A stretch of DNA of 64,000 bases from an uncultured bacterium (GTDB lineage Bacteria > Bacteroidota > Rhodothermia > Balneolales > DATFMH01), in the NCBI GenBank assembly GCA_963787205.1, contig CAWBCD010000006.1, forward strand, positions 171,009 through 235,008, read 5' to 3'. How positions within the stretch are numbered: position 1 is the first letter of the stretch; each line of letters begins with the position of its first letter. The position numbers and the translations under genes were made by a program. This document shows positions 35,020 through 61,023 of the stretch, piece after piece. Under the pieces are notes generated by a model. That model worked only from the letters and a program-made list of their open reading frames with translations, made no database searches and had not been told where the DNA came from.

Positions 35020-36546
35020 TTAGCGTATCAGCAGCATTTTCCGTATCTGGCTGAATTCATCTGTTTGTAACCGATAGAAGTAAATTCCACTTGCCAGCTG
35101 CGCAGCATTAAAACGGACGAGATAGGAACCCGCGCCCTGTGTTTGGTTGACTAGCATGCCAACCTGACGTCCGGTCAAGTCGTAAACAGTTAATCGAACC
35201 ATCCCTGTTTTTGCCAATTTATACTGGATGACGGTACTCGGATTAAACGGATTGGGATAGTTTTGGAGCAATTCAAACCTGTCGGGTATGCTGGCGGTCT
35301 GAGTTTGTTCAATAGGAGTGGGCACTTCGGTTGGTCTGTTTTGTGTAAATGTATTTGTCTGGGACAGGAAACTTGACCAGCTTACCCCCAACCAATAATC
35401 AGTTGTCATTCTTACCATATTTCCATTGCTGTCGAATGTTGAACGAATACGAAAATTGTTCATCCAATCCGTACCGGTCCACATCTGGGTTAAATATTCG
35501 GTCACCTGGTTGCTGGCATTATATGTATAAACTATTCGATACTGATCGATCCAATTCGCCCCGTCCCAGGCTTGCTCAACCATCGTGGCAAAATCCAGTG
35601 TTGTCGACGACGAGTGGTAGGTAAACAGGGTCTTTGTAGTATCAATCCAGTTACTCCCCCTGTATATCTGTTCAATCATTTGGTTTGGCCTGTTATACGA
35701 ATCATAGCTGTAGATATCTTTTGTACTGTCGGCCCATTGACCGTTTGTCCAAACCTGATACAGTTCGGTACTGATATTATTGTTATCAATGGTATAAACA
35801 TATTGATCCACGTTTACCCAGTTGCTTCCATCCCAGTTTTGGTACAGCTCGAGTGTTGGCTGCATAGCTTGTCCGTAACTGTATGAAGTCCGATCGTAAT
35901 TCACCCAGTCGCTCGTGCCCCAGTCCTGGTTGATAATCTCGGTCTCTCTGTTCTGACCGTCATAGTTCGTAATCATTTTATAACTGTTGACCCAGCCGTT
36001 ATTCATCCAAAACTGAGAATAATGCTCCGTCTCCAGATTAGATGCGTTGTAGCTATACAGGATCTGGTTCAGGTTATCAAATTGTCCGCTCGTTTTATTC
36101 CAGCTGGTCGTCAGGTCCTTGGTAACATTATTATTGGTGTCGTACGTGTACTCGTCCAGCAACGAATTTTCGAATTTACCGGTAGTATCATTGTATATCT
36201 TATACAGGGCCTTCGTGCTGTCGTCATTTGTGTTGTAGGCGTAAAAAATTTGGCTGACAGAGATCTTGGATCCCGGGAATAGCGGAAACAGAGTATCCTG
36301 CGACGATTCAAGATACCAGGTTGCGTTGATTGTCCGAAGCTGATCCTGACCGTTAATACTATTCACCAAATTGCGCAGTCCATTCGCGGGTATAGATTTA
36401 GCTTTGGGCACATGAATTTTCGATGAAATGCGTTTCATGGGAGATAGTTTACCAGAAAACTGCTGAGACTGTGCATTTACTGTTCCAAATGCAAGTAAAA
36501 TCACAATGATCGACGTTGTAAGCCTGATCTTATTAGCAAGGTACAT
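35020..36546 (-). CDS. Secreted repeat protein with a T9SS C-terminal sorting domain
   Basis: Signal peptide. Many W.N..(K/R)..Y.YD..N-type repeats. C-terminus QNYPNPFNPSTVIQY..GIYFYRLQTDEFSQIRKMLLIR. Confidence 0.8.
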   Translation of the reverse strand: MYLANKIRLTTSIIVILLAFGTVNAQSQQFSGKLSPMKRISSKIHVPKAKSIPANGLRNLVNSINGQDQLRTINATWYLESSQDTLFPLFPGSKISVSQIFYAYNTNDDSTKALYKIYNDTTGKFENSLLDEYTYDTNNNVTKDLTTSWNKTSGQFDNLNQILYSYNASNLETEHYSQFWMNNGWVNSYKMITNYDGQNRETEIINQDWGTSDWVNYDRTSYSYGQAMQPTLELYQNWDGSNWVNVDQYVYTIDNNNISTELYQVWTNGQWADSTKDIYSYDSYNRPNQMIEQIYRGSNWIDTTKTLFTYHSSSTTLDFATMVEQAWDGANWIDQYRIVYTYNASNQVTEYLTQMWTGTDWMNNFRIRSTFDSNGNMVRMTTDYWLGVSWSSFLSQTNTFTQNRPTEVPTPIEQTQTASIPDRFELLQNYPNPFNPSTVIQYKLAKTGMVRLTVYDLTGRQVGMLVNQTQGAGSYLVRFNAAQLASGIYFYRLQTDEFSQIRKMLLIR

Positions 36547-39750: not shown

Positions 39751-42700
39751 CTACTTAATCAGCATCATCTTCCTGGTCTGGGTAAAGTTGCCAGCCTTCA
39801 GCCGATAGATGTACAACCCGCTGGGCAAGTTGTGGGCATCAAAACGTACCGAGTACGCTCCGGCGGCCTGAGTTCGATCTACCAGCCTGGCGACCATCTG
39901 TCCCAGCACATTGTATACGGTCAGACGCACATGCCTGCTGCCGGAGAGGGTGTAGCGGATCGTGGTCGTGGGGTTGAAGGGGTTGGGATAGTTCTGTCCC
40001 AGGTGATACCCGTTGGGCCGGGTCTGGATATTGCCCTGAATGCCCGTGGCAGCCAGTCCGGTGTTCTGCTACATAGTAGGTGTCCGTGGTGGGCAGCACC
40101 TTGGCATTGTCCGAACTCAGGTCGATGGTGTAACTGCCCATAGACGTGGTATCGGTGCGGGTCAGGGTCCAGCTAATGACTTTCTTTGCTCCCACGCCCA
40201 GACTGGGGATCGTAACCTGTTTCTGAGAGCCGGTCGTGGTGGCCGAATCGGTCTGCAGGGTTACCGTCACATTCGTGGCCGGGGAAGTGCCCAGGTTGGT
40301 CACTACCGCCGAGAGGGTAAAGGGCTGGCTGCTTTTGGGTTGGCTTCGTGGAGAGCGAATCCCGGCTGATGATCACATAGGGGGGAGCGGCTACCGAGGA
40401 GACCTCACCGGTCACGGTAGTGGTCTGGTTCTCCAGATCGCCCAGGTGCTTGCTTACCGAATCAGCCGAGGCGGTTAAATCCTGCAGGCTCACCGACTGT
40501 CCCAGGGCATACCCAAGCAGGTTGGCATACAGCCCGGCCCGTGCCGCCGCCCCGCCCACGTTTGCCTGGGCCAGGGACAGGTAGTGGGCCAGGAAGGTCG
40601 AATCGGAGGGAGCCAGCTGATCGGCCACCGCATCGACCGGGGCCTGGCTGAGCTGCAGCTGCTGGTCCAGGGACTGGTCCGCCTGCATCAGATCGCTGAG
40701 CTTTCCCAGGGCCTGGGATTTTTGATTGTTCCCGATCAGGGCAAGGATCTGCTGAACCAACTGGTTGTACTGGTCCACCGAGGTAGTCAGATCCTTCTGA
40801 CTTGTTTGCAGGGTCTGAGCGGTATAGCGGATATACCGCCTGCCCGACTGTTCGGGGACAATCTTCTGGAAAGTGCTCTGTTGGTCCGGGTGATACGCCA
40901 CATCGATCCCGTTGTTGGCCTCCACGGCGATCTGAGCCAGGCGCAGCCCGGGGGCGATCGCCGAGGTCAGGTAGGAGGCCAGGGACGTGCCTTTTAAAAC
41001 GCCTGTCATGGTTTCTGCCCCCCCGGCGACAACCGCTCCCACCCCGGTCTCGGAGGTCGGTGCGGCAATCTCGGCGATGAGCTGGGTGATGTTCGCGCCG
41101 GTTTCGGTAAGGTCTCCGCCGTCTTCGCCGCTCATCGGCTATCTTCTTGACCAGTTTGGTCGCTGCATTGGACTGCTCCAGCACCGAAGAGGTGGTCGTG
41201 TCGACCAGGTCGTGGCAGGCCTGGGCGGTAGCTGCCGCTGTAGTCAAAGGCATCGAGCCAGCTTCGCCGAGCGATCCAGCCCGGTCTGGGTCGCCGGCAC
41301 ATACCCGTAGGAGAGCAGGATCTCGTCGGAGGCGGTGCTGGCCAGCGCCTGGGTCTGGTCCTTGAGGATATCGCTCAGAAAATCCTTCTTCGAATCGCTC
41401 TGGAAGAAGTCCAGGGTCTTACCCACGGCCAGGGGCACATACTTGTTGTAGGGGGCTGGCAGGGCATTGGCCACCTTGTTGATGACCGGGTTCAGAAAGG
41501 CGCTGCGGACCTGACCCCGGATGCCCGTGACCAGACTGTTCACCTCATTGGCCAGTTGTTCGTCGGTATACTTCTTTGGAGGTCTTCTCCTCGGTTTTGT
41601 TCGCCAGTTTGCCGGCCAGGACATAATTGGTGATCAGCTGGGTGGTGGCCGTGCTCAGGCTGTGGCTCATCGTCGCCGCGTTGGTAAACTCGCCCTGGTA
41701 GAGGGACTGGACCATCAGGTGGCGGGCCAGGGCCTTGATGCGTTGGTGGTACACACTGTTGGTATCCGAGGCGCTCACCGCTGTGGCTCCCGTGCGCCAG
41801 TCCTGCAGCAGGGCGCCGGTGGCGGCGGGATCATAGCTGTTGACCAGGGGCTGGGGCGGGAGCAGGCCGAAGAGCACGTCCGAGGAGATGGTCAGATGGT
41901 CCAGGCCGTAGGCCCCGGTATAGGTCTGGTTGTACAGGCCCACCGGCAACCGAATGGAATAGTAGGTGGGTTTTACGGTATACTTCCAGGACAGGTGGGT
42001 GGCCTGGTTGGTCAGCTCATTGACCGCGTTGGCCCCGACCTGCAGGGTGTAGGAGGAGTCGGTCTGGTTGGGAAACTGGAAGCCCCCGTCCGCCCCGGTC
42101 GTCGCCTGGGTGTCCAGGGTTGCACCGCTGTACAGGGAAACCCCGGCCCCGGAGAGGGCGGAGGCCGGCAGGGTGCCCTTGCCCAGGGTTACATCCTCAA
42201 CGGTGCCGGTGACCTCGTTGGATAAGGCAGCCTTCAGGATATAAAACCCACTATTCTGTTCAGTCATGTAGATATATCCGCCGTTTGCGTAAACTACATT
42301 TGCAGCTCCACTATCCTCATATGTACCCACAGTAAACGGATGGGCCGGATCACTCACATCGAGGACTTGAAGGCCATCCATACCATTTTGATCCGCGTCT
42401 ATTGTGTAGGCGTATCCTCCTCTGGCAAACACTCCGTTCATGTAACCATTGGGACCTGAAAACTTAGGTATATATGAGTCCACTACCTTCGGATGGGCAG
42501 GATCGCTGACATCAATGATAGTAAGGGCACTATCTCTGGTTACATAGGCATCATTACCCGAAACCGATATAAAACTATCACCAGCAAAAGTTGGACCAAC
42601 ATTATATGAACCTATTTGCTTTGGATTCGCAGGGTCACTAACATCAATAATATGAAGTGTAACCCCTTGAAAGCCATAACCAGTACTGGCATATGTGGCG

Positions 42701-49767: not shown

Positions 49768-50946
49768 CTATTTACTGTTTACTGCTAACTGATTACTGAT
49801 CCCGGTTCCCCTGCTGATTAACTCTAAAGTCAGCCGATCTGCCATACGCAAACCTTCATCTGTACAAACCAGCGGTGTTGTTTCTTTCAGGTAACCCTGT
49901 GACTGCATCTGCCTCACAAAGATCTTCTGCTCGTCATTCAGGGAATATCTATAACGTGTTCGGAGTTCTTCCGGACTTACTCCTTTTCGTGTTCGCAACC
50001 CCAGCATGATACGTTCCTCAGCGAGTGTATTCAAATCGAGGGTTTCATGTTGAATATGAATGGATTTTTCAGATTTGACGTACAATTTGAAGTCGGCAGC
50101 ATTGAACCATCTCCGGGCAGACCGTTGATCCTCATCCCACCAGAACGAGTGAGCCGAGGGTCCGAAACCCAGGTAGTTTACATGTTCCCAGTAGTTACTA
50201 TTGTGAAGAGATTCGTGACCCGGTTTTCCGTAATTGCTGACTTCATAATGTTCCAGTCCGGCAACCTCCAATCGTTGAGCTATGCGATCAAATTGACTCG
50301 CCACATCGTCGTCATCCATTGGCTCGAACCGACCTAATCTTGCAAGTTTACCCAGCCGGGTTTGGGGTTCTATCGTCAGTGAGTAAGCAGACACATGAGG
50401 GGGGGGATATCGCAACAACATATCAAGGTCACTGTCCAGGTCCGACAACCTCTCATCAGGATTGCCATAGATAAGATCGACCGTGTATGTGTCGAATCCG
50501 GCCTGCCGCAGATATTCCATGCATAATATGGACTCGTTTGCCGTATGCGCGCGATGCATAAATTTCAACAATCGCGGCTGAAACGACTGAACACCCATAC
50601 TAGCCCGATTCACCCCCATCTGTCTCAGATCACGCAGAAAAGAAGGGGATACATCATCGGGATTCATTTCAACCGTTACTTCTTTGAGATCAGCAAGCTC
50701 AAAATTATCCTGTAACTCTTTAAAGATTCGCTCGAAATCTTGCAGGGCGAGCCTGGAGGGAGTCCCTCCTCCAAAGTAGATGGTTTCGATTGGTTCCTGG
50801 TTATACCGGCTATCTTTACACGCCCGAATTTCATGGATCAATGCATCCACAAAAGCAGTACGATATTCCTGCCGGGTGATGAAATAAAAATCACAGTAGG
50901 AGCACGCCTGCTTGCAAAAAGGAATGTGAATGTAGATGCCAGCCAT
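49768..50946 (-). CDS. hemW: Radical SAM heme chaperone HemW (HemN-like)
   Basis: YIHIPFCKQACSYCDFYF (CxxxCxxC), YFGGGTPS and a HemN_C-like tail. Confidence 0.88.
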   Translation of the reverse strand: MAGIYIHIPFCKQACSYCDFYFITRQEYRTAFVDALIHEIRACKDSRYNQEPIETIYFGGGTPSRLALQDFERIFKELQDNFELADLKEVTVEMNPDDVSPSFLRDLRQMGVNRASMGVQSFQPRLLKFMHRAHTANESILCMEYLRQAGFDTYTVDLIYGNPDERLSDLDSDLDMLLRYPPPHVSAYSLTIEPQTRLGKLARLGRFEPMDDDDVASQFDRIAQRLEVAGLEHYEVSNYGKPGHESLHNSNYWEHVNYLGFGPSAHSFWWDEDQRSARRWFNAADFKLYVKSEKSIHIQHETLDLNTLAEERIMLGLRTRKGVSPEELRTRYRYSLNDEQKIFVRQMQSQGYLKETTPLVCTDEGLRMADRLTLELISRGTGISNQLAVNSK

Positions 50947-50951
50947 TAAGG

Positions 50952-51743
50952 TTATCCCTTATAAAAGGCCTCTGCTATTCGCTGAAACTGGTACGGTTGA
51001 TCCAGAAAAGCATAGTGACCGGCCTCCTTGATCGTTACTAAGGCGCTGTTGCGCAGACCTCCGTTCATACGTTCTGCCTGATATAACGGAGTGGTGTCAT
51101 CGTTCGTACCCCATATGAGCAATATCTCATGATTGATTTCAGGCAGGCAGGGTTCCAGATATTCGCTAACAACCTTGACAAACGTTTCTCTCATTACCCC
51201 CTGAAGCTGCTGGTAGTCGGAAGAGCCCAGGCTTTTCCATAAAGGCGTCTTACGCAAGAGATCAATTTGCCGGGTCTTCGCCGGTTCAGGCAGAATCGAA
51301 AATGGCATTTTCAGCAGTTTGGCAAAGTATTTTTTGAAATAGAATTTGGCACTACGACGCGGTTTCATACCTGCCCCACCCGTTATAAGAACCTTGTCGA
51401 AGCGATCCGCAATCTGTTGCCGGGCACACAATTTGAGCATGATTCGTCCGCCGAGAGAGTGGGCCAGGATGTCGACCGTCTGAAAACCAAGCTCATCAAT
51501 CAGCGCAAGAACGCAGTCCGCATAATCGTCAACAGACCATGATTGGAATGGCTCTTCAGACTCGCCAAAACCCGGCAAATCCGGTACAATACATTTTCGC
51601 ACCGGACTCATCGATTGTGCCAAGGGCAACATAAGCTTACCGCTTGCTCCCCAGCCATGTAGAACAATAAGTGGTTTTCCTTCACCAAGTACGTAATAGT
51701 GAAGTTTCCGGTCTCTGTACGTCGTGCTATATTCTGTCGCCAT
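50952..51743 (-). CDS. Alpha/beta-fold hydrolase
   Basis: HGWGASG oxyanion region, nucleophile elbow AHSLGG, C-terminal GHYAF. Confidence 0.8.
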   Translation of the reverse strand: MATEYSTTYRDRKLHYYVLGEGKPLIVLHGWGASGKLMLPLAQSMSPVRKCIVPDLPGFGESEEPFQSWSVDDYADCVLALIDELGFQTVDILAHSLGGRIMLKLCARQQIADRFDKVLITGGAGMKPRRSAKFYFKKYFAKLLKMPFSILPEPAKTRQIDLLRKTPLWKSLGSSDYQQLQGVMRETFVKVVSEYLEPCLPEINHEILLIWGTNDDTTPLYQAERMNGGLRNSALVTIKEAGHYAFLDQPYQFQRIAEAFYKG

Positions 51744-51867: not shown

Positions 51868-52797
51868 TCAATATGTTTTCGGCATACCAGAAGGTCTCAT
51901 GTCCGGATGTGAACGCCAATAAACATACGGCCCGGTAACAGGAAAGTATAAAACATCAGTAACGATATTTTTTCGTACGATGAAAACCCTTGGTACAGAA
52001 GGTGCAAATTTTTCAAAATCTCCTTTGGAAATTATAATGCTTGAAAAATTTGGGATGGTCACTTTTTCAAAATTCTCAAAGTCCTTTTTTGATCCAATTG
52101 TAATCCCAATAACCCTATCTACGGTATGAGTTCGGACGTAAGCTTTCACATTTTCAACCGTATTTAAACAATATGGGCAGGTCGTGTGGTAAGCATAAAC
52201 AATGTATGTAGAATCCGGGCTGGTATGGACATACGGTCCGAAAGGAGTCTCCGACACTTTTTTCCCTACAAAATTATTACTCTGATGAACAAAAGGCTTA
52301 ATTGAGGAAATGCCTGAAAGTACCAGTGTGATTGTCAACATCGCCCCGACAGAGTAATAGGGCCACCGCTTATTTTGAAGCCTGGGCTTAGGTACCGGTT
52401 TAAAAAAAACATATCCGGATAAAAACAGAAAAATTGCGTTTCGAACTACGATCATTGCCGGAGGCATTTTCGATAATGCAAGGCTTCCGAAGCAACCACA
52501 ATCTGTCAAACCGCTTGTGAAATATGCGAACAGGTAGACAAATGTAAAAATTAACAAGCTGATGACAGATGCCAGTGCTGTTTTACGCGAATGAAGAAAA
52601 AGAATAAAAAAGATGCCGAGGGCAATCTCAAACGGTGGGATTAATAACCCTACAAAGAAAAACTTATCAAAAATCCGGATACTTGTGATATAGCCGATAA
52701 AATTTTGAACATTTAGTAGCTTACTAAAACCGGACACAATAAAAATTACTCCCATAATCAGGGAGAATATCCTGGATAATATTGTCTGCAGCCTCAT
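51868..52797 (-). CDS. MauE/DoxX-like membrane domain fused to a thioredoxin-fold domain (CPYC)
   Basis: N-terminal 4-TM region with GFSKLLN and DCGCFGS. C-terminal domain with YAYHTTCPYCLNTVENV. Resembles a MauE-MauD type fusion. Confidence 0.7.
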   Translation of the reverse strand: MRLQTILSRIFSLIMGVIFIVSGFSKLLNVQNFIGYITSIRIFDKFFFVGLLIPPFEIALGIFFILFLHSRKTALASVISLLIFTFVYLFAYFTSGLTDCGCFGSLALSKMPPAMIVVRNAIFLFLSGYVFFKPVPKPRLQNKRWPYYSVGAMLTITLVLSGISSIKPFVHQSNNFVGKKVSETPFGPYVHTSPDSTYIVYAYHTTCPYCLNTVENVKAYVRTHTVDRVIGITIGSKKDFENFEKVTIPNFSSIIISKGDFEKFAPSVPRVFIVRKNIVTDVLYFPVTGPYVYWRSHPDMRPSGMPKTY

Positions 52798-52849
52798 TAT
52801 CTTGATGCTAAAGTTAAATATGAACGATATGCAATGGTCTTATAAAAGA

Positions 52850-52883
52850 CAAGCCATTCTATCATTATGACAGAAATGGCTTG
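52850..52883 (-). terminator. Terminator after peptide gene C
   Basis: Stem CAAGCCATT / AATGGCTTG. On the minus strand it is followed by TCTTTTAT. Confidence 0.6.
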
Positions 52884-52912
52884 CGTCTAAAATATACCCA
52901 ACCCCAAAAAGA

Positions 52913-53089
52913 TCAGCTTGGTAATGGGCCGCCACCGCATCCATTATTGCTGGATACGTAGCTTGCAGCTTTGTCGCAGAAGGCCTTGAATTTGGTTATA
53001 AACGTTTGAACTTCACATGAATGAAATTCTATTCGTTCTTCAAGCTCTTCCATCTCGAAAGCTTCTACAAGTTTTTCGTATTTGTCCAT
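52913..53089 (-). CDS. Small peptide C (58 aa) with shared leader motif; candidate precursor
   Basis: Hand translation: MDKYEKLVEAFEMEELEERIEFHSCEVQTFITKFKAFCDKAASYVSSNNGCGGGPLPS. Below the ORF-track cutoff. Lies 20 nt downstream of the protease gene. Confidence 0.6.
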   Translation of the reverse strand: MDKYEKLVEAFEMEELEERIEFHSCEVQTFITKFKAFCDKAASYVSSNNGCGGGPLPS

Positions 53090-53109
53090 GTTTTATTCCC
53101 CCCTTCGGA

Positions 53110-54313
53110 TCAAATTTTAGTTGAATCTAGATTAAATAACTGAAAGCCCCTGACTCGTATATACTTATTAATCCATTCATATGATTTTTTTATTAGTATA
53201 TAGTAAAACAGAGTGACCATCAGATAATTCACAATTAGCTCAGAACCTGCTAGGTGTCCATTTATCAAACCTGTAATCAACTTCCACGTCACTGCTGGAT
53301 AATTTATCACAATCGCGCCGTGTTTTGTTACTATGAAAAGTATATAGAAAATCGTTAAGAACGTATTAGAAAATGCATATATAATAAGATACCAATCTTT
53401 CCGGCTTTTCTTTCTTTTTTCCTTCATTCCAAACCACTCAAGGGATAAATCTCTGATCTGATTTGCAGAGACGCTCATCAGGTTTGGTGTCTCCAGTGCA
53501 TCGCTCAGAATCCAGTATCCGTCATACCTCATGAATGGCCACAGCTGGAACAAGGATGAAAATACGATTAGCTCGGCAGCAAGAAGCAAAAATGGTTTTC
53601 CGGTAATAAAATAAGCCGCTATGATGAAGAAATTAACAAAGAACTGGATATGTATTCCTGCAAGATTTGTAATCACCCGTTCTTTACGGGGAAGCATCCA
53701 TAGCCCAGTCACATCGGCCCAGGAAACGGGGAAAACCAAATAAAAACCAATACCGATACCGCCATGTCTTGATTTAAATTTTCTGCATGCGGAAATATGT
53801 CCCACCTCATGCAAAATAACTGAAAGGAAATAGATAAGAATGACCCATAAATAGGACCAGTCGTTGGGCGCCAACTTTACTGAGTCAGTCAGAAAAAAGG
53901 CAAAAAATACATTGGCAATTAAAAAGAGAAAGAATGCAAAGAAAAATGATCTCTTTATGGTACAGAAATTTAAATATATCCCCTAGTAATCCGGCAATAT
54001 CCTTTTTAAAAATGGTCAGACGCAATCTTAAATATGATTTTCTGGTATGTGACTCCTCTTTTGTACTAATATGGAGAACCGAACAGACAAATTGGATGAA
54101 TCCATCCAATGTGAGATCTTCACTTTCCTCATCCGTAAACTGTATGTATGCTTCCTTCCAGCTTTGTGAATTTTTGAGTATTACAACCAGCCTCTGTGTT
54201 TTATCATTAATCAAAAAATATTTCCCTTCTCCATTATGTAGAACACGGCGACTGGAATCATATTGACTTATATGAATAGAGTCCCGAAATGGTATGTAAT
54301 CCGAAGGGGTCAT
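53110..54313 (-). pseudogene. PqqD-like domain + M50-type membrane metalloprotease, copy C (one frame change near 53930-53950)
   Basis: ORF 53885..54313 carries the PqqD-like part (VLHNGEGKYFLINDKTQRLVVILKNSQSWKEAY). ORF 53110..53874 carries HEVGH and LWPFMRYDGYW. The TM segment FAFFLFLIANVFFAFFLTDSVKLAPNDW is readable in the downstream frame upstream of its start. Confidence 0.65.
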
Positions 54314-55227
54314 GAGATAAATGTACCGACTTTGTTAGCGGCCTTTTCCAGCAATTGATCGATTGTCAGAATAATTTGGCCGATTTGTTTGATATCCTGT
54401 TGTGGAAACTTTGCCAAATTATCAGATGGCAGCATATCCCAGCAATTCACGCTCTTCTCAAAATATTTTATGGCATCCCCATAAAGTTCGGTCGCAACTC
54501 CGCTGACAAAGAAATACTTAACTTTTTTCTTTGCATCCATCTGATCGATTGCAATACCCTCCCTTTTCATCCTTTTATTGAAGGAATATTGAACATGATT
54601 CCAGGAATCCCCCGCTACATCATATTTAAAATCGATGATATCAGATATTAACTTTTTCCCAAGAAAATAATTTTCTAATCCTGCCGTCAAATTCCCTTTT
54701 TCTATACCCTCGTCAGAAATCGACGAGAAAACTTCTACAGGCAGATTGAATACAACGGAAAATGGTTTTACCAGCTCTTCATATAGCTCCTTATCTATCT
54801 CTACTTTTAAGGAGCATGCTGTTTCGTAATTATCGATGTGATCATTCAAAAATGTATATGAATCTGCCAGCAGTCTATCAACAACCGATCGTTTGGCAGT
54901 AAAATAGGATGCAATTTCTTTCGTCTTTTCCTCGATTGACCATAACACTTTCCTGGCTTCAGTAGTATTATTTATGGTCATTGGCAGAGCTTTGTAATTC
55001 ACCATGAAGTACAAATACTGAAATTGCAAAAAATGAATCATGGCAATCGATTCGACTACTGCCGGATCCATATTGTCGTACAATTCGGCTATCAGATAGA
55101 TAAGCTTGCGGTGATACAGAAACTGCTTCTGAGCCTCATGAGATGTAAGTAGTTTTTGAATCCTTCGCTCAAGTATTGCCCCGGTAATCGTCTGCTGATA
55201 ATTCTGCCATGTTTTGCTAACAAGCAT
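54310..55227 (-). CDS. Unknown, predicted all-helical protein (305 aa), start/stop overlap (ATGA) with protease copy C
   Basis: No signal peptide or TM segment and no motif I can name. Has an Asp-rich stretch SDIIDFKYDVAGD. Confidence 0.6.
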   Translation of the reverse strand: MLVSKTWQNYQQTITGAILERRIQKLLTSHEAQKQFLYHRKLIYLIAELYDNMDPAVVESIAMIHFLQFQYLYFMVNYKALPMTINNTTEARKVLWSIEEKTKEIASYFTAKRSVVDRLLADSYTFLNDHIDNYETACSLKVEIDKELYEELVKPFSVVFNLPVEVFSSISDEGIEKGNLTAGLENYFLGKKLISDIIDFKYDVAGDSWNHVQYSFNKRMKREGIAIDQMDAKKKVKYFFVSGVATELYGDAIKYFEKSVNCWDMLPSDNLAKFPQQDIKQIGQIILTIDQLLEKAANKVGTFIS

Positions 55228-55447
55228 AGCTGGATATATATTAGATAATAATTACTAGTCCATAGTATCTACATCCGCGGAACCATAAGCAAATTAAAAG
55301 CATATAATAGAGTATGTTTTTGACGTTATGGCAAGACAATAGTCTTCAAATAATCGAGAGCTTCATGAGAAATTGAACAACAGGTTATTCCAGTAAAGCG
55401 GTAAATCTTATCAGATCAATCCTCGATTTTTTGAAATGGCGTATCAT

Positions 55448-55486
55448 ATAAAAAGAGCCAATCCCTTGTACAGAAATTGGCTCTTT
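55448..55486 (-). terminator. Terminator after peptide gene B
   Basis: Stem AGAGCCAAT / ATTGGCTCT. On the minus strand it is followed by TTTTTAT. Confidence 0.7.
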
Positions 55487-55509
55487 TAAAAATGCTGCTC
55501 TATATACAA

Positions 55510-55734
55510 TCAACAGCTACCCGAGCTAAAATAACTTTTCATGTTATTTATAGCATCTTTGCACCAATGATAGACCATGGAGTAGTTTGTTTTAATGTAG
55601 GTTACAAATTCCTGAAATCCACCAGAGAAATGATCAGCTACTGTTTTTAACCAGTCCTCTATCCCCCAAAAAAAGAACTCTACTCTTTCATCAAGCTCTT
55701 CTATGTAATAATTTCGACTTTTTGAATCCTCCAT
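55510..55734 (-). CDS. Small peptide B (74 aa) with shared leader motif; candidate precursor
   Basis: MEDSKSRNYYIEELDERVEFFFWGIEDWL...HWCKDAINNMKSYFSSGSC. Confidence 0.6.
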   Translation of the reverse strand: MEDSKSRNYYIEELDERVEFFFWGIEDWLKTVADHFSGGFQEFVTYIKTNYSMVYHWCKDAINNMKSYFSSGSC

Positions 55735-55847
55735 AACTCTCCTTTAAGTATATAATCTAGTATTTCATGTATAATATTTACTCTTACAATTTTTTACAGT
55801 TAGATTTTTAAAATTATCCTAAACCCGGATTTGAAAGGTTTAAAATC

Positions 55848-56858
55848 CTACAGTAGAAATACTATCAGACCAATTATAATTAGAAAAAAGGATGCGGAAT
55901 ATCCGATCAAAACCATCCTTTCTAAGGTTAAGGAATGCCAATAATCAGCTCTTTTTTTTGACACCATTTTTATGAGGAATAGCTTTAATTCACCCATGGA
56001 TGTTTTGGTAAGTTTGGGCGTATTTGTCAGATCACTTAGGCACCAGTAACCATCCAGCCTTATAAATGGCCACAACTGAAATAATGCAGCGGAACTGATC
56101 AGATAAGCACTATACAGTAGATATATAGATCTGTTCAATAGGTAAAGGCCAATTAGCAGGAAACTCATTATCAACTGCATGTAAATTCCAGCCAGGTTTG
56201 CAATAACGCGTTCTTTCTTCGGCAGCATCCAGATGCCATGGATATCAGCCCAGAATACCGGGAGTATGAGATATAGACCAATACCAACTCCGCCATATTT
56301 TCCCCCAAATTTCTTACAGGCACTGATATGCCCTAATTCATGTAAAAGAGCTGATAACACAAAAAGAATAAAAACATACAGTAATTCACGACTGCTAACC
56401 GAACTCTCAAGAATCGGATTTATCAGATATCGATAAAAAAATAATGATCCCAATCAGAGAAAGAGCAAAGATTGTGAAAAAACTCGATGGGTTATAAAGT
56501 GGTTCAAGTAACGCTGAAATCGCACCGGCTATGTTCGATGGGATCAAGGTAATTCGAAGATGAATAGATTTATGACGCTTCCTGATCTTATCGTTCGCTG
56601 CAAGTCATCACTTGTCAGGATATCCTTACCTTTTAGTGACTCCTCAACATTATTACGAAAATCGGCAAAAGTTTGGGAAATGCCTCCTCTTGTGTAAATG
56701 TAAGCTTCATATGCCTCATCCAGCGAATTTGCTTCTTTCAACACTCCCACTAACTGATAAAGTTCCTCATTAATGACAAAATATCTCTTCTTTCCATTAT
56801 GAAGGATATATTTATCATCACCATACTTGGAAATTTCAATATTGGGTGAGAGAAGCAT
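55848..56858 (-). pseudogene. PqqD-like domain + M50-type membrane metalloprotease, copy B (two frame changes: near 56590 and at a T7/A7 run at 56435-56441)
   Basis: ORF 56544..56858 is PqqD-like (YILHNGKKRYFVINEELYQLVGVLKEANSLDEAY). The middle segment KRHKSIHLRITLIPSNIAGAISALLEPLYNP.. is in a third frame. ORF 55848..56453 carries HELGH and LWPFIRLDGYW. Confidence 0.65.
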
Positions 56859-57023
56859 ACCTCAGAAATCCCATCCATAAAAGATTGGAGCATACGATGT
56901 AAATTTTCTTATATCCTCGACTCTCTAATATCTGTCTTGGCAGTAGTATTCTACTTGTTCAATCCTATTTTGCTCCTTAATACAGAAAAATTGTTACTCG
57001 TACATTTTAACGAAAGGCCAATT

Positions 57024-57058
57024 AACAAAAAAGCCATCCCTAAACTTGAGATGGCTAT
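57024..57058 (-). terminator. Terminator after peptide gene A
   Basis: Stem AGCCATC / GATGGCT. On the minus strand it is followed by T6. Confidence 0.7.
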
Positions 57059-57087
57059 AAAAATCAGATAACTAAAAGTTTATCTTT

Positions 57088-57321
57088 CTACCAGTCACCA
57101 AATCCCCAAAAACGTGTACCACTGCTATAGCTGGCACTGCTACCACACGCAGTCTTTGGCGGTTGACAACTATTTAAGAAATTATCTCCATATGACCCCC
57201 CATGATGATATGGTGTTGCACCAACAATTTGGTTAATCACTCCACTGAGAAAGAAAAACTCAACTCTATTCTCAACTTCCTCAATCTCGAATTTCGTAGC
57301 TATTTTTTTGTGTTTATTCAT
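57088..57321 (-). CDS. Small peptide A (77 aa) with shared leader motif; candidate precursor
   Basis: MNKHKKIATKFEIEEVENRVEFFFLSGVINQIVGATPYHHGGSYGDNFLNSCQPPKTACGSSASYSSGTRFWGFGDW. Confidence 0.6.
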   Translation of the reverse strand: MNKHKKIATKFEIEEVENRVEFFFLSGVINQIVGATPYHHGGSYGDNFLNSCQPPKTACGSSASYSSGTRFWGFGDW

Positions 57322-57387
57322 TGCCTTAATCTTTAATTCTAATTTTAACCCCGATAGGATAATAAGTTTTTTTTGACTGTCGTATCG

Positions 57388-58446
57388 TTAAATTTTTATA
57401 AACGTCTGTCGTTGCTCAACATATCTTAAAAAATGAATCGATATACAATTACAACCAAATAAAAAGCAAACAACAAGCAAAAGGGCATAGTTAAAACAAG
57501 CATAGATCAGTAGCATTAGATCCTTTTTTGAAAAACCCATCTTCTCATTTGTGTCCGATTCGGAAAGATAATATTTGAATATCTTCCTTATTGCGGCCGT
57601 GGACGTCTTGTTTAAGTTTGGAGTATCCAGCCAATCACTCATCAGCCAATATCCATCCAGATATACAAAGGGCCATAGTTGAAATAGTGCCGCGGAGCAG
57701 ATCACAAAACAACTTTCGAGAAACATAAGATTCTTTGTTCCCAGATATATCGCCGCAAGGAAAAGCCCTATAAGTAATTGGATGTAAATACCCGCCATAT
57801 TAATGTAGAGCCGTTCTTTTTTGGGAAGCATCCAAATTCCATGAATATCAGCCCAAAAGACTGGAAAGATCAGGTACATACCAAAACCGACCCCACCATG
57901 TCTGCCACCATATCGTTTGCAGGCGCTGATATGCCCTAATTCGTGTGCCACGACCGAGAACATAAAAAACCCGATCATATACCAGAATTGGCTTGGAGTC
58001 AGAGCGTAAGCCAGGTCAATGTACCCATAGTGAAAAAATATATAGCACGAACTCACTATGGCTAATAAAAAGACAACGGGAAACAGTTTCCTGTTATACA
58101 GGGGGGATATGAGTCGCGACAGACTACCAGCTAATCTTTCTGGTATTAAAGTAAGCCGCAAACGCACATGCTTTTTTTGCTTATGGACTAAGTCATCTCC
58201 ATCCAGCAATATTTGCTTGCCATTGAAAATTTCCCGTACATGCTCCTCAAACTCACTTGCTGATTCAATATCAGCATTTGAAACATTATACAGACGAAAA
58301 GCCTCTTCAAAGTCCTTTGATTTTTTCAAGATGTTTATCAGCGCATACGAATCCTCGTTGATAACAAAGTACCTGTTGCTTCCATTATGGAGCATATAAC
58401 TCTCTTTACCATATTTTGATAATTCAATCTGCTGCGAAACTAACAT
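57388..58446 (-). CDS. PqqD-like (RRE-like) domain fused to an M50/site-2-type membrane metalloprotease, intact copy A
   Basis: N-terminus YMLHNGSNRYFVINEDSYALINILKKSKDFEEAF.. fits the PqqD-family pattern. The membrane part has a TM-embedded HELGH and a later FQLWPFVYLDGYW (the LDG motif of M50/S2P). Confidence 0.7.
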   Translation of the reverse strand: MLVSQQIELSKYGKESYMLHNGSNRYFVINEDSYALINILKKSKDFEEAFRLYNVSNADIESASEFEEHVREIFNGKQILLDGDDLVHKQKKHVRLRLTLIPERLAGSLSRLISPLYNRKLFPVVFLLAIVSSCYIFFHYGYIDLAYALTPSQFWYMIGFFMFSVVAHELGHISACKRYGGRHGGVGFGMYLIFPVFWADIHGIWMLPKKERLYINMAGIYIQLLIGLFLAAIYLGTKNLMFLESCFVICSAALFQLWPFVYLDGYWLMSDWLDTPNLNKTSTAAIRKIFKYYLSESDTNEKMGFSKKDLMLLIYACFNYALLLVVCFLFGCNCISIHFLRYVEQRQTFIKI

Positions 58447-58497: not shown

Positions 58498-61023
58498 CTA
58501 TTTTATCAATAACATTTTTCTTGTTTGCACAAACACATGTCCGTCGGATGAATGTGCAATGATTCGATATAAATAAGTCCCGCTTGAATAAGACGCTGCA
58601 CTCCACTCATAATGATAGGTTCCTGCAGCTTGTTCAGAATTAACCAACTGAGCCACTCTCTGTCCCAAAATGTTATAAATTTCAAGTGTTACTTTGGACC
58701 TGCTGCTTAAGCTGTAATTAATATTTGTAGTTGGATTAAAAGGATTGGGATAGTTTGCCGAAAGTTCCGTTTTATCTGGTATGTTTAAAACCGGCTTCTC
58801 TATTGCCACCGTAGTTTTTGGCATAATGTGATAATTGAGAGAATTCACCGAAATCCTGCCTGAATATTCGTCAAGACTAACACCGGCAACCGAGATAACG
58901 ACATCGGCTTCTTTAGAAGCACTAATATGCAGCGTTCCCAACGTACCGGTCGAAAAGCTATCTGCTTCGGCAATTGCCAGACTAAAAACGTTCTGATCAT
59001 AATAGGTCTGATATTGTGCATTATGCCAAACACTACCCGTCGTGTCGAAGGTGACAGAGTTAATTACCCCCGCAGGCAATGCAAGCCGGACAACAAAGGA
59101 CGAGAAATGGTGTCCGCTCTGGTTATTGAGCTTCAAAACCAGGGGATTGTCACCCGAAGCAGTGGTATCACCCTTGTCTAGTTGCAGATCAACCGGGTCT
59201 GCCGGGCTGGTTGCAGGATTTCCTGTTACACTCTTAGCTGCCGAATAAACATCCGTTTCCGGACCATAATTATCGTGATTACTGTCTTTCGCAAAATATT
59301 TATCCGATCCGTCCAAATGCCTCATGATCAATGAAGCATCATAAGTCGATATCGTGCCGTCGCCTGACAGATCGGACCCGACGAGTTGATCAATATATGT
59401 ATCACCGTTTATGGCAATATTTGAAAGGATATTATTTACATCTGTCTTATCTAAGAAACCATCCTCATTGTAATCTCCATAAAGAACATCATTGTCACCA
59501 ACCAACAGGCGACTGGTTGCGGTGGTTGACGAGGATACATTAGCTGTCACAATGCCAAGGTCTGAAAGGTTCTCCCAACTCCACGGTGTCTGTATATGTA
59601 TCTGACCTGTTTCCGGGTGAGTTGTTTGAATGATCTCCTTTGTTGAACCATCTTTAAATGTTGCCAGCAAACCGACATCCATCTGATTTGATGATGAGTA
59701 CAGGCTAACCATAACGGGTCCGGTACTCGATCCTGGAACTATTTCCTGATAATTGGCCGAGAGTCTGTTGGAATAAAGCCGTAAACTGAACCCGGATGGA
59801 GGTTGATCATATTCATGAATCACTCGGGAGGTCGGATAATTCATCCGTTCCTGAAAACCATAATCAGCCGGTGACCGATGCCCCGATGCATAATGCCACA
59901 ACTCAGATTCTACAAAAGTCTTTGGAAACGTTGCGTTATAATCGTTTTCCAGCACATATGTCATGCTGTTGATATAGCTGTCATTCGTCCGGGAGATATA
60001 TGCCCATACCTTTCGCCAGAAACCAATGCCGTACTTCTGTAAATAGTATAACGCAAACGTGACCTGGTAATAACTGCCCGGATAAATCGAGTACTGTGGA
60101 TTATTAAATATCGAACTCGGGCTCTTGAGGTAGTTGTAATAATCGTTCACCGTGTCAAAGACGGCCTCTTCCATCATGACGGCATCCATTTCAAGCCAAC
60201 GGGCACTCTCTCCGGACCATCCATCATCAATATATTGGATGGCATGTTTGAACTCATGGGCAATTGTGACTTTCAGATCACCCTTTACCTTACCATCAGG
60301 ATCGGTATTCGGAGGAAAGCCGCTGAGCGCAAAATCACAGTGAACCTTCATCTCAGGGTTTCCCTGGCTGTTAATATAGGTATAGCCGTAGGTGGGGCTA
60401 TTATCATTTCCGAGTCTGGCAAAACGGATTACAAATGCCGTTGTATCCGGTATCGGATCGCTAAAGCCCATGATCTTCACTTCCGTGTCGTAGACTGAGT
60501 CGGCATACTGCCCCGCCCATTCAACGTAATCGGGAATACCATCGTTATTGGCATCAGCTGTCGGGACTGCGTCCGGACTACTCGGGTCAGTTGTATAATA
60601 CAACTTGAATTTCCCGGAAGGTGACATATATATTTGGTTATCCCCGGATCCGGCAGAAGTAAGGTAATGATTAATGATATTTTGTGTACTTTTAGAGAGT
60701 GTTTTGCGGGACAACTCGTATTCTACAACTGCTGGAGTAAAACACTTTACAGGTTGCGACTGTGAACTCTCCACCTTTAGATAGCGCGCCGGTAATTTTG
60801 AAGGGTCGAATTCACTATAAAACTGATATAACAACGCATCTTGATGACTAATTTTATTCTGCTGAAAATCCTGATCGATCCGGATAGCGACGGATGAATA
60901 CGGTTGTGGAGCATAATCAGATTGAGCCGTCACCTGAGCATGGGTAGCTAAAGGGACAACAGCGCCAATGATTAGTAGAATGATAATTTTAATATGATTA
61001 TTACGTAGGCTCATATAATTCAC
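58498..61023 (-). CDS. Secreted HExxH zinc metalloprotease with dockerin-like and cohesin-like modules and a T9SS CTD
   Basis: Signal peptide. VTIAHEFKHAIQY. Dockerin repeats DYNEDGFLDKTDVNNIL and DLSGDGTISTYDASLIMRHL. CTD NYPNPFNPTTNINYSL..GTYLYRIIA..KMLLIK. Confidence 0.75.
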   Translation of the reverse strand: MNYMSLRNNHIKIIILLIIGAVVPLATHAQVTAQSDYAPQPYSSVAIRIDQDFQQNKISHQDALLYQFYSEFDPSKLPARYLKVESSQSQPVKCFTPAVVEYELSRKTLSKSTQNIINHYLTSAGSGDNQIYMSPSGKFKLYYTTDPSSPDAVPTADANNDGIPDYVEWAGQYADSVYDTEVKIMGFSDPIPDTTAFVIRFARLGNDNSPTYGYTYINSQGNPEMKVHCDFALSGFPPNTDPDGKVKGDLKVTIAHEFKHAIQYIDDGWSGESARWLEMDAVMMEEAVFDTVNDYYNYLKSPSSIFNNPQYSIYPGSYYQVTFALYYLQKYGIGFWRKVWAYISRTNDSYINSMTYVLENDYNATFPKTFVESELWHYASGHRSPADYGFQERMNYPTSRVIHEYDQPPSGFSLRLYSNRLSANYQEIVPGSSTGPVMVSLYSSSNQMDVGLLATFKDGSTKEIIQTTHPETGQIHIQTPWSWENLSDLGIVTANVSSSTTATSRLLVGDNDVLYGDYNEDGFLDKTDVNNILSNIAINGDTYIDQLVGSDLSGDGTISTYDASLIMRHLDGSDKYFAKDSNHDNYGPETDVYSAAKSVTGNPATSPADPVDLQLDKGDTTASGDNPLVLKLNNQSGHHFSSFVVRLALPAGVINSVTFDTTGSVWHNAQYQTYYDQNVFSLAIAEADSFSTGTLGTLHISASKEADVVISVAGVSLDEYSGRISVNSLNYHIMPKTTVAIEKPVLNIPDKTELSANYPNPFNPTTNINYSLSSRSKVTLEIYNILGQRVAQLVNSEQAAGTYHYEWSAASYSSGTYLYRIIAHSSDGHVFVQTRKMLLIK

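What the first reader, a model, noticed from the sequence alone, without database searches (positions are those of the whole stretch)
52913..58446. Three tandem modules of a PqqD-like/M50 protease fusion plus a small leader-bearing peptide gene: candidate undescribed peptide maturation/export system
On the minus strand the same two-gene unit occurs three times: 58446->57088, 56858->55510 and 54313->52913. The first gene of each unit has an N-terminal ~90-aa domain whose sequence (Y.LHNG...YF.IN...Y.L...LK...S..EA) fits the PqqD-family RiPP-recognition-element pattern. It continues into a polytopic membrane domain with a TM-embedded HE[LV]GH and a later LWPF..[LY]DGYW, which are the two signature motifs of M50/site-2 intramembrane metalloproteases. 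The second gene is a 58-77 aa ORF with a conserved N-terminal motif and a divergent C-terminal region. Each unit ends in its own hairpin/T-run terminator. An RRE fused directly to an S2P-type protease suggests leader recognition and cleavage by one polypeptide. I do not know a described RiPP or bacteriocin class with this arrangement. No ABC/C39 exporter, LanB/C, YcaO, or cluster-specific radical SAM enzyme is present.
Basis: partly seen in the sequence, partly recalled or inferred. Interest (0 to 1): 0.9.

Follow-up and report, generated by a model that had tools for sequence, protein, structure and literature searches.

The report
Leader-peptide protease cluster, partly broken
This is a small gene cluster for secreted, cysteine-containing peptides whose leaders are probably removed by a membrane protease carrying its own peptide-recognition domain; that protease design is already known from the daptides, the rest of the cluster appears undescribed, and two of the three protease genes are broken in this genome.

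Summary
On the minus strand there are three paralogous units, each a protease gene, a 58-77 aa peptide gene and a hairpin/U-run terminator.

Only protease A (58446-57388) reads through. Protease B has two frameshifts and protease C has one, relative to intact orthologues. A has a 1-nt insertion that rewrites its last ~18 residues.

The N-terminal domain models as an RRE fold, with Foldseek hits to TbiB1, TfuB1, SkfB and LynD. The membrane part is site-2-protease-like (SpoIVFB hit, HExxH, LDG motif).

The peptides share the leader FE[IM]EE[LV][ED]xR[VI]EF. I found the same leader beside homologous proteases in at least 12 independent loci, and nowhere else in six-frame scans.

The claim that the arrangement is undescribed does not hold. 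RRE fused to an intramembrane site-2 protease is the handle by which the daptides were discovered in 2023 (leader ELExMEAP). NCBIfam places these proteins nearest the daptide and epipeptide proteases, but below cut-off.

It is not a daptide cluster: there is no C-terminal Thr and no DapB/C/D/M.

Some relatives have MauE fused to the protease itself.

Verdict: a new variant of a known kind, and a plausible uncharacterised RiPP or bacteriocin family.

The parts
57388..58446 (-). Protease A, 352 aa. N-terminal RRE-like domain (residues ~1-95, nt 58446-58162) fused to an S2P/M50-like membrane metalloprotease. HELGH is at nt 57945-57931 and the LDGYW aspartate D264 at nt 57657-57655. A +1 nt insertion near 57470 rewrites the last ~18 residues.
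   Evidence: ORF. NCBIfam daptide_HExxH 117 bits and YydH/LiaK 76 bits. AF2 model, pLDDT 74. Foldseek hits to SpoIVFB and the RRE proteins TbiB1, TfuB1, SkfB and LynD. Tail indel against L004.
57088..57321 (-). Precursor peptide A, 77 aa. Leader ...FEIEEVENRVEF; Gly/Ser-rich core with 2 Cys and a C-terminal Trp.
   Evidence: The orthologue in L004 has the same leader.
57032..57056 (-). Intrinsic-terminator-like hairpin plus T-run after peptide A.
   Evidence: -16.3 kcal/mol, z = -2.9.
55848..56858 (-). Protease B. Same architecture, but disrupted by two frameshifting insertions (+2 nt near 56594, +1 nt near 56417). Probably a pseudogene in this sequence.
   Evidence: Three-frame translation. 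tblastn with the intact 337-aa orthologue P0008. DNA alignment to L004.
55510..55734 (-). Precursor peptide B, 74 aa. Leader ...YYIEELDERVEF; core of about 52 aa ending in Cys.
   Evidence: Orthologues in L002/L003 and L004.
55452..55487 (-). Hairpin with a 16-bp stem plus U-run after peptide B.
   Evidence: -23.6 kcal/mol, z = -5.2, 0 of 200 shuffles as stable.
54310..55227 (-). 305-aa all-helical protein with a trans-polyprenyl-diphosphate-synthase fold. The second Asp-rich motif is kept (D196, D199, D203) and the first is lost. Its stop overlaps the start of protease C. Conserved in every related cluster.
   Evidence: AF2 pLDDT 88, pTM 0.88. Foldseek: 27 PDB hits at E<=1e-3, all polyprenyl, FPP or GGPP synthases, TM 0.56-0.66. 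Alignment with the fused homologues. Synteny.
53110..54313 (-). Protease C, the long form (orthologues are 388-401 aa with extra C-terminal helices). Disrupted by a +1 nt insertion at about 53950.
   Evidence: DNA alignment to the intact L025 gene, 85% identity, a single 1-nt gap.
52913..53089 (-). Precursor peptide C, 58 aa. Leader MDKYEKLVEAFEMEELEERIEF; core has three conserved Cys (SC..., ...C..., ...NGC...).
   Evidence: Orthologues in L001, L002, L005, L007/L025 and L017. Only 6 called homologues in 5.8 billion proteins.
52849..52884 (-). Hairpin plus U-run after peptide C.
   Evidence: -21.1 kcal/mol, z = -3.6.
51868..52797 (-). MauE/DoxX membrane domain (CGCFG motif) fused to a thioredoxin-like domain with CPYC. 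Candidate thiol-disulfide oxidoreductase for the Cys-containing peptides.
   Evidence: Pfam MauE 67.9 bits. Conserved position in L001, L002, L008, L017 and L025. Relatives P0116, P0117 and P0120 have the protease fused to MauE.

Best explanation
This is a peptide-maturation cluster built around a leader peptidase with its own substrate-recognition domain.

Proposed mechanism:
1. Each small gene encodes a precursor with an N-terminal leader of about 22 residues (...FE[IM]EE[LV][ED]xR[VI]EF) and a core of 36-55 residues that usually contains Cys.
2. The cytoplasmic RRE-like domain of the protease binds the leader motif.
3. The fused site-2-type zinc protease cuts at or just after ...R-x-E-F at the membrane, as proposed for the homologous daptide peptidase MpaP.
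4. The released core reaches the periplasm. The MauE-thioredoxin (CxxC) fusion then forms or isomerises its disulfides.
5. The 305-aa polyprenyl-synthase-fold protein is a conserved accessory. Its role is unknown: a possible ComQ/PalQ-like peptide modifier, or a degenerate non-catalytic partner.

The ancestral core of the system is the fold-protein, protease C, peptide C and MauE-Trx. Units A and B are extra protease-peptide pairs.

In this genome only protease A is plausibly active. Because the three leaders share the motif, A could serve all three peptides.

What is shown: the domain folds, the motifs, the homology to RiPP proteases, the co-occurrence with leader-bearing peptides, the MauE fusion, and the frameshifts.
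What is inferred: leader binding, the cleavage site, export, disulfide formation, and any bioactivity.
For: - NCBIfam: nearest families are the daptide intramembrane metalloprotease (117 bits, aligned over residues 15-327, so including the N-terminal domain) and the YydH/LiaK epipeptide protease.
- AF2 model with beta3-alpha3 N-terminal domain, and Foldseek hits to the leader-binding RREs TbiB1, TfuB1, SkfB and LynD and to SpoIVFB.
- Invariant H168, E169, H172 and D264.
- Published precedent: RRE-S2P fusion, ELExMEAP leader, RRE-dependent intramembrane peptidase. The M50 protease EpeP matures the epipeptide.
- Leader-bearing small ORFs sit next to homologues that share only ~30% identity, in different lineages: L008, L010, L012, L030.
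- The motif is absent elsewhere in about 200 kb scanned in six frames.
- Protease-MauE fusion proteins P0116, P0117 and P0120 exist. MauE-Trx is syntenic in L001, L002, L008, L017 and L025.
- CxxC is conserved between the window protein and the L008 protein.
- The cores of peptide C carry three conserved Cys.
- Each peptide gene has its own terminator.
Against: - No biochemical data exist for any member of this subfamily.
- The Pfam M50 score is below the gathering threshold (19.7 against 27.2) and Pfam PqqD does not hit.
- Foldseek E-values for the protease model are weak (0.06-1), even though the probabilities are high.
- No exporter gene lies in the cluster.
- Proteases B and C are frameshifted and A has an altered tail, so the system may be inactive here.
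- The 305-aa protein lacks the first Asp-rich motif, so catalysis is doubtful.
- The number and position of Cys are not conserved across peptide types. The L004 type B peptide has a single Cys.
- The fused protease-MauE locus L009 shows no motif-bearing ORF.
Confidence: 0.62

Rival explanations
1. The locus is a decaying relic in this genome. The protease genes are pseudogenes and the cluster makes nothing, whatever its ancestral function was.
For: There are four frame-changing insertions in about 3.3 kb of protease coding sequence, and none in the 13 neighbouring genes that could be compared with relatives. None of the four insertions lies in a long homopolymer run, so typical sequencing slippage is a less likely cause.
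Against: The three peptide genes, the 305-aa gene and the MauE-Trx gene are intact and conserved. Protease A keeps all catalytic motifs and a hydrophobic tail. The indels could be assembly errors, and I could not inspect the reads. This rival concerns activity in this organism. It does not change what the system is.
Confidence: 0.35
2. It is a divergent daptide cluster: peptides whose C-terminal Thr is converted to an amine, with MpaP-type leader removal.
For: The best NCBIfam hit is daptide_HExxH. The architecture is the same, the leader motif also starts with acidic residues and E-L-E, and several precursors occur per cluster.
Against: The score of 117 bits is far below the 300-bit equivalog cut-off, as it is for all 26 sampled relatives. 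None of the 15 peptides ends in Thr. No aminotransferase, alcohol dehydrogenase, methyltransferase or DUF-RRE (DapB) gene lies in or beside the cluster. The cores are longer and contain Cys.
Confidence: 0.03
3. It is a regulated-intramembrane-proteolysis signalling device. The S2P-like proteases would cleave small regulatory or membrane proteins (of the anti-sigma or pro-sigma kind) rather than mature secreted peptides.
For: S2P family members such as SpoIVFB and RseP do this, and SpoIVFB is the top structural hit.
Against: No sigma or anti-sigma gene is adjacent. The small proteins have no predicted transmembrane anchor or DNA-binding features. They have hypervariable cores behind a conserved leader, which is the RiPP or bacteriocin pattern. 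The RRE fold and the MauE-Trx and polyprenyl-synthase-fold partners point to peptide maturation.
Confidence: 0.05
4. The peptides are ComX-like prenylated pheromones. The polyprenyl-synthase-fold protein would prenylate a Trp or Cys before leader removal.
For: ComQ and PalQ are isoprene-synthase-fold peptide prenyltransferases. The 305-aa protein has that fold and keeps one Asp-rich motif. Distant relatives fuse this domain to a prenyltransferase/SQHop-cyclase alpha/alpha toroid. Peptide A and its L004 orthologue end in Trp.
Against: The first Asp-rich motif, which ComQ retains for binding the prenyl donor, is lost in the window subfamily. Trp is not conserved in type C peptides, which are the ones always linked to this gene. 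No ComP/ComA-like two-component pair is adjacent.
Confidence: 0.12

Closest known systems
Daptide leader peptidase MpaP/DapP (RRE fused to an intramembrane site-2 protease; Ren et al. 2023, doi 10.1101/2023.03.08.531785)
   Same: An N-terminal RRE is fused to an HExxH intramembrane metalloprotease. Several short precursor genes occur per cluster. The leader has a conserved acidic E-L-E-type motif (ELExMEAP there, EELExRxEF here). It is the best NCBIfam hit, and the alignment covers both domains.
   Different: The score is 117 bits against a 300-bit cut-off. There is no C-terminal Thr and no DapB/C/D/M or ABC transporter genes. The cores are 36-55 aa and contain Cys, rather than being aliphatic helices. 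The partners are a polyprenyl-synthase-fold protein and MauE-Trx. The lineage is Balneolales or Bacteroidota-like rather than Actinomycetota or Bacillota.
EpeP/YydH (LiaK family) M50 protease of the epipeptide pathway
   Same: A membrane M50-type protease dedicated to maturing, and possibly exporting, a ribosomal peptide. It is the second NCBIfam hit at 76 bits.
   Different: The match covers only residues 89-280, so there is no RRE counterpart. No radical SAM epimerase belongs to this cluster, and the score is below the 225-bit cut-off.
SpoIVFB / RseP / MjS2P (site-2 proteases, MEROPS M50)
   Same: HExxH in a transmembrane helix, a membrane-reentrant beta-hairpin, and the third zinc ligand Asp in an (N/W)PxxxxDG-type motif. 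SpoIVFB 8vjl is the top Foldseek hit.
   Different: There are no PDZ or CBS domains. The N-terminal RRE is in their place. The substrates are small leader-bearing peptides, not membrane-anchored regulators. Pfam M50 scores below threshold.
Discrete lasso-peptide RRE proteins (TbiB1, TfuB1) / PqqD family
   Same: The beta3-alpha3 winged-helix fold, which binds a leader peptide as an added strand. TM 0.61-0.67 normalised to the target.
   Different: There is no detectable sequence match to Pfam PqqD. Here the domain is fused to a membrane protease rather than working with a cysteine-protease B2 and a cyclase.
ComQ / PalQ isoprene-synthase-fold peptide prenyltransferases, and trans-polyprenyl diphosphate synthases
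   Same: The 305-aa protein has this fold (TM 0.60-0.66, prob 1.0) and is encoded next to precursor peptides.
   Different: The first Asp-rich motif is lost and only the second is kept. That is the reverse of ComQ, which has FARM but lacks SARM. No activity is known.
MauE/MauD-type thiol-disulfide systems; mauE-containing candidate RiPP clusters noted by decRiPPter
   Same: A MauE membrane domain with a Cys pair, next to Cys-containing peptide genes. MauE has been proposed to have a disulfide-forming role.
   Different: Here MauE is fused to a CxxC thioredoxin-like domain and linked to an RRE-S2P protease, sometimes fused to it.

Membership tests
Daptide biosynthetic cluster | The protease scores above the NCBIfam NF041824 equivalog cut-off (300 bits). 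| tested here: not met
   117.4 bits for A, 96.8 and 90 bits for the B and C fragments. The 26 sampled relatives are also below the cut-off.
Daptide biosynthetic cluster | The precursor has an invariant C-terminal Thr. | tested here: not met
   The window peptides end in W, C and S. None of the 15 related peptides ends in T.
Daptide biosynthetic cluster | Genes for the DUF-RRE protein (DapB), the oxidative decarboxylase (ADH), the PLP aminotransferase and the methyltransferase. | tested here: not met
   Pfam and NCBIfam scans of the cluster ORFs give none of these. The flanks are housekeeping genes shared with relatives.
Daptide biosynthetic cluster | [quoted passage not shown] | tested here: met
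Site-2 protease / MEROPS M50 | HExxH within a transmembrane helix, plus a downstream Asp ligand in an NPxxxxDG-like motif. | tested here: met
   H168, E169, H172 and D264 are invariant in subfamily and superfamily alignments. The window subfamily has WPFxxLDG and the superfamily consensus is NPFxRxDG.
Site-2 protease / MEROPS M50 | Pfam PF02163 above the gathering score. | tested here: not met
   19.7 bits against 27.2. Some relatives do pass (P0116 at 28.0).
Site-2 protease / MEROPS M50 | Structural similarity to a solved S2P. | tested here: inconclusive
   SpoIVFB 8vjl_A is the top hit with prob 0.99, but E = 0.06 and TM is about 0.3. The sequence profile against PDB gives MjS2P 3b4r at only E = 0.47.
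RiPP recognition element (PqqD-like) | A three-stranded sheet followed by three helices, similar to solved RREs. | tested here: met
   E8-12, E16-20, E26-29, H31-42, H46-54, H63-73. TbiB1, TfuB1, SkfB and LynD hits with TM 0.61-0.67 normalised to the target.
RiPP recognition element (PqqD-like) | Sequence match to Pfam PqqD (PF05402). | tested here: not met
   No hit at E <= 1.
RiPP recognition element (PqqD-like) | Binds the leader of the cognate precursor. | not testable with these tools
   Only co-occurrence of a conserved leader motif with the domain can be shown. No multimer prediction or binding assay was available.
trans-Polyprenyl diphosphate synthase / ComQ-like prenyltransferase (the 305-aa protein) | The isoprenoid synthase alpha-fold. 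| tested here: met
   Foldseek prob 1.0, E as low as 3e-5, TM 0.60-0.66.
trans-Polyprenyl diphosphate synthase / ComQ-like prenyltransferase (the 305-aa protein) | Two Asp-rich motifs (FARM and SARM), or at least FARM as in ComQ. | tested here: not met
   Only the second motif is kept (D196, D199, D203). The first reads VNYKAL, where the fused homologues have FDxxxD. Pfam polyprenyl_synt does not hit the window protein.
MauE/DoxX redox membrane protein | Pfam PF07291 above the gathering score. | tested here: met
   67.9 bits against 27. The CGCFG motif and a C-terminal CPYC are visible in the sequence.

The most novel reading that the evidence does not exclude
The EELExRxEF-leader peptides, their RRE-S2P peptidases, the polyprenyl-synthase-fold protein (fused to a prenyltransferase/terpene-cyclase-like alpha/alpha toroid in Bacteroidota-like relatives) and the MauE-thioredoxin protein together define an uncharacterised RiPP class. 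That class would have its own chemistry, for example Cys or Trp prenylation or another toroid-catalysed modification, plus disulfides. It would be one of many unexplored branches of a superfamily of more than 12,000 members, of which only the daptide branch has been studied.
Probability: 0.35. Interest if true: 0.75.

Novelty: new variant of a known kind. Interest (0 to 1): 0.55.

Why it matters
RRE-fused intramembrane peptidases gave rise to one new RiPP class, the daptides. My profile search found 12,338 cluster representatives with this architecture, against 483 known daptide clusters. Most of the family is therefore unassigned.

This locus and its relatives give a concrete second context for the family:
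- a distinct, highly specific leader motif;
- Cys-containing cores;
- a MauE-thioredoxin partner, sometimes fused to the protease;
- an isoprenoid-synthase-fold partner.

That set gives genome miners a searchable signature. It also gives a testable case of leader recognition and cleavage by a single polypeptide outside the daptides.

For this particular genome the value is lower, because two of the three proteases are frameshifted. The intact orthologous loci L002, L004/L025 and L005 are the ones to test.

Tried and rejected
- Pfam scans found no PqqD match and only sub-threshold M50 matches. Domain assignment had to rest on NCBIfam, AF2 and Foldseek.
- A sequence profile searched against the PDB gave nothing significant. 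MjS2P came up at E = 0.47.
- Daptide membership was considered and rejected, because four of five defining features fail.
- Programmed frameshifting in B and C was rejected. The orthologues are uninterrupted at the same places.
- A generally poor assembly as the cause of the frameshifts was judged unlikely. The 13 neighbouring genes that could be compared are intact and the insertions are not in long homopolymers. Without the reads this cannot be excluded.
Related loci are labelled Balneolales, 'Chitinophagales' and uncultured MAGs.
- Literature searches for a described cluster combining an RRE-S2P protease with MauE or a polyprenyl-synthase or SQHop-cyclase-like protein found none. Absence from the open-access library is not proof of absence.
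I repeated them with alignment A2.
- The exact-leader DNA scan of metagenomes also returned chance matches such as UvrB-like EELEERIEF. These were discarded.

Full report
**1. What is in the sequence**

On the minus strand between 58446 and 52913 there are three paralogous units.

- Unit A is a 352-aa ORF (58446-57388) followed by a 77-aa ORF (57321-57088).
- Unit B spans 56858-55848 and is followed by a 74-aa ORF (55734-55510).
- Unit C spans 54313-53110 and is followed by a 58-aa ORF (53089-52913).

All three large genes contain HE(L/V)GH and LWPFxx(L/Y)DGYW.

Each small ORF is followed by a stable hairpin and a U-run. The free energies are -16.3, -23.6 and -21.1 kcal/mol, with z-scores of -2.9, -5.2 and -3.6 against shuffles.

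The paralogues are old. A shares about 40% identity with the B orthologue and about 35% with the C orthologue.

**2. Two of the three protease genes are broken**

- B is split over three reading frames, and C is split over two.
- The relative L004 (about 77-90% DNA identity) has an intact 337-aa B gene (P0008). Against it, the window has a +2 nt insertion near 56594 and a +1 nt insertion near 56417.
- The relative L025 (85% DNA identity) has an intact C gene. Against it, the window has a single extra base at about 53950.
- Unit A has an extra base near 57470. It replaces the conserved tail ...LLLFA(L/F)YLVVIVYRFIF with an unrelated 31-residue tail.
- All 13 flanking genes that could be compared with relatives are intact and in a single frame.

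The indels are therefore specific to the protease genes. Either these genes are decaying in this genome or there are local assembly errors. I could not inspect the reads. Programmed frameshifting is excluded, because the orthologues are uninterrupted at those places.

**3. What the large protein is**

- Pfam gives only a sub-threshold M50 hit and no PqqD hit.
- NCBIfam is informative. The best match is NF041824, 'daptide biosynthesis intramembrane metalloprotease' (117 bits, residues 15-327 against profile positions 17-337). The next is NF058609, 'YydH/LiaK family epipeptide maturation metalloprotease' (76 bits, protease domain only). Both are well below their equivalog cut-offs.
- An AlphaFold2 model built on 11 homologues (pLDDT 74) shows an N-terminal beta-beta-beta-alpha-alpha-alpha domain. 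This is followed by a helical membrane domain with a beta-hairpin after the HExxH helix.
- Foldseek against the PDB returns SpoIVFB (8vjl, prob 0.99). It also returns a series of leader-binding RRE proteins: TbiB1 (5v1u and 5v1v, prob 1.0, TM 0.64-0.67 normalised to the target, rmsd about 3.3 A over 84-89 columns), TfuB1 (6jx3), the RRE region of SkfB (6efn) and LynD (4v1u).
- H168, E169, H172 and D264 are invariant in the subfamily and in a sample of the superfamily.

The support comes from fold and family evidence, not from a PqqD sequence match.

**4. The small ORFs are real genes with a conserved leader**

Relatives keep the same neighbourhood: rhodanese-like gene, T9SS protein, cluster, MauE, hydrolase, HemW.

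Every protease gene in these relatives is accompanied by a small ORF with the motif (F/Y)(E/Y)(I/M)EE(L/V)(E/D)xR(V/I/L)EF, followed by a divergent core. Each type (A, B, C) has recognisable orthologues.

Type C cores keep three Cys (..SC.., ..C.., ..(N/D)GC..). Type B cores end in Cys.

The motif persists next to proteases that share only about 30% identity with A:
- L008: ...FEVEELEGRFE...
- L010: ...FEVEELEERVEF...
- L012, a high-GC locus with a radical SAM enzyme and glycosyltransferases: ...DIEELEQRLE...
- L030...FELEELEERIEF....

A regex for the motif, run on all six frames of the window and 12 loci, hit only these ORFs. A metagenome scan for the exact type C leader added L017, L025, L028 and L030. 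It also returned unrelated chance matches, which I discarded.

That criterion is not met, so the peptide-substrate idea survives.

In L002 a motif-bearing peptide also lies upstream of the protease, so two peptides share one protease. Peptide and protease numbers therefore need not match. The shared leader could let protease A serve all three peptides in the window; this is inference.

**5.

(a) The 305-aa ORF at 55227-54310.
- Its stop overlaps the start of protease C, and it is present in every related cluster.
- Its model is confident (pLDDT 88, pTM 0.88).
- It matches only trans-polyprenyl, FPP and GGPP synthases (27 hits at E <= 1e-3, prob 1.0, TM 0.56-0.66).
- In L008, L010 and L028 the homologous domain forms the N-terminal half of 647-685 aa proteins. 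Their C-terminal half is a prenyltransferase/squalene-hopene-cyclase-type alpha/alpha toroid.
- The second Asp-rich motif is invariant (D196, D199, D203). The first (FDxxxD in the fused forms) is lost in the window subfamily.
- ComQ and PalQ show that proteins of this fold can prenylate ribosomal peptides. ComQ, however, keeps the first motif, so activity here is uncertain.

(b) The gene at 52797-51868.
- It encodes a MauE domain (67.9 bits, with CGCFG) fused to a thioredoxin-like domain with CPYC.
- It is syntenic in L001, L002, L008, L017 and L025, and the CxxC is conserved in L008.
- Superfamily members P0116, P0117 and P0120 are single polypeptides containing the RRE, the protease and MauE. 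This domain fusion ties MauE functionally to the protease.

The minimal conserved cluster is seen alone in L001: the fold-protein, protease C, peptide C and MauE-Trx. Units A and B are additions.

**6. Mechanism proposed**

By homology with the daptide peptidase, the cytoplasmic RRE binds the leader motif, and the fused zinc protease removes the leader at the membrane, probably just after R-x-E-F. The core then reaches the periplasm, where the MauE-Trx protein handles its cysteines. The fold-protein is an accessory of unknown role.

Shown: the folds, the motifs, the homology, the co-occurrence and the fusion. Inferred: binding, the cleavage site, export and redox chemistry. No exporter gene is present. 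For the related M50 protease EpeP, a dual role in cleavage and export has been suggested.

**7. Comparison with what is known**

That is not correct.
- Ren et al. [quoted passage not shown] Their precursors carry an ELExMEAP leader, and they describe MpaP as an RRE-dependent intramembrane peptidase.
- Epipeptides use the M50 protease EpeP/YydH.
- The architecture is widespread. A profile search of 1.84 billion cluster representatives gave 12,338 hits at E <= 1e-3 and 2,188 at E <= 1e-30, mostly full length. All 26 sampled members fall below the daptide cut-off.

This is nevertheless not a daptide cluster:
- no peptide ends in Thr;
- there are no DapB/C/D/M genes;
- the scores are far below the cut-off.

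The narrow subfamily is rare:
- 11 word-indexed homologues;
- 4 representatives above 350 bits;
- 3 GTDB species, labelled Balneolales, 'Chitinophagales' and an unnamed MAG;
- 6 called homologues of peptide C.

I found no paper describing the combination of an RRE-S2P protease, an EELExRxEF leader, a polyprenyl-synthase-fold or toroid protein, and MauE-Trx. decRiPPter did note mauE in candidate RiPP clusters.

**8. Verdict**

- The feature is real.
- The novelty claim is overstated.
- The description of three intact modules is wrong for this sequence.

The cluster is best classed as a new variant of a known kind. It uses a daptide-type RRE-S2P leader peptidase in a different, apparently uncharacterised peptide family with its own leader signature and partner proteins.

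Interest is moderate (0.55). It gives a searchable second context for a very large, mostly unexplored protease superfamily. The mechanism rests on homology, however, and this particular locus may be inactive.

Noticed in passing
window 53950, 56417, 56594, 57470: All four frame-changing differences from close relatives are insertions, and all lie in the three protease genes. The peptide, fold-protein, MauE and 13 flanking genes are intact. Either the proteases are being selectively lost or there are local assembly errors.
   Followed up: partly
window 58498-61023 (-): An 841-aa protein lies immediately upstream of unit A. It has an HEFKH motif in a DUF6055-like region, a dockerin-type repeat pair and a T9SS C-terminal sorting domain. 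It holds the same position in L002 and L004 (838 aa). L001 has a 469-aa DUF6055-like gene there instead. Three other T9SS-tail paralogues lie elsewhere in the window (about 2330-2644, 35023-35316 and 39754-40044). I did not establish whether it belongs to the peptide cluster.
   Followed up: partly
window 52000-58000: G+C falls to 0.355-0.380 across the cluster, against 0.42-0.46 in the flanks. G+C rises to 0.61 at 40001-42000, a region I did not examine.
   Followed up: no
L002 9413-9751: A 112-aa motif-bearing peptide (FYIEELDERLEFFFFG..., rich in His, Gly, Trp and Cys) lies upstream of the B-type protease with no protease of its own. This looks like a unit A that has lost its protease.
   Followed up: partly
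L012 1469-6877: A high-GC relative places the same protease family and a DIEELEQRLE-leader peptide (51 aa, 2 Cys) beside a radical SAM enzyme, an SQHop-cyclase-like protein and two glycosyltransferases. The leader and protease pair appears to be reused with different tailoring enzymes.
   Followed up: no
L009 6001-7791: A 596-aa single polypeptide combines the RRE, the M50 protease and MauE. It sits next to an HMA-domain gene and a copper or heavy-metal ATPase. I found no motif-bearing small ORF there, so its substrate is unclear.
   Followed up: partly
window 49768-50946 (-): A HemN/HemW-type radical SAM gene lies close to the cluster. It is syntenic housekeeping in all relatives, together with the hydrolase at 50952-51743. 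I therefore did not count it as a tailoring enzyme.
   Followed up: partly
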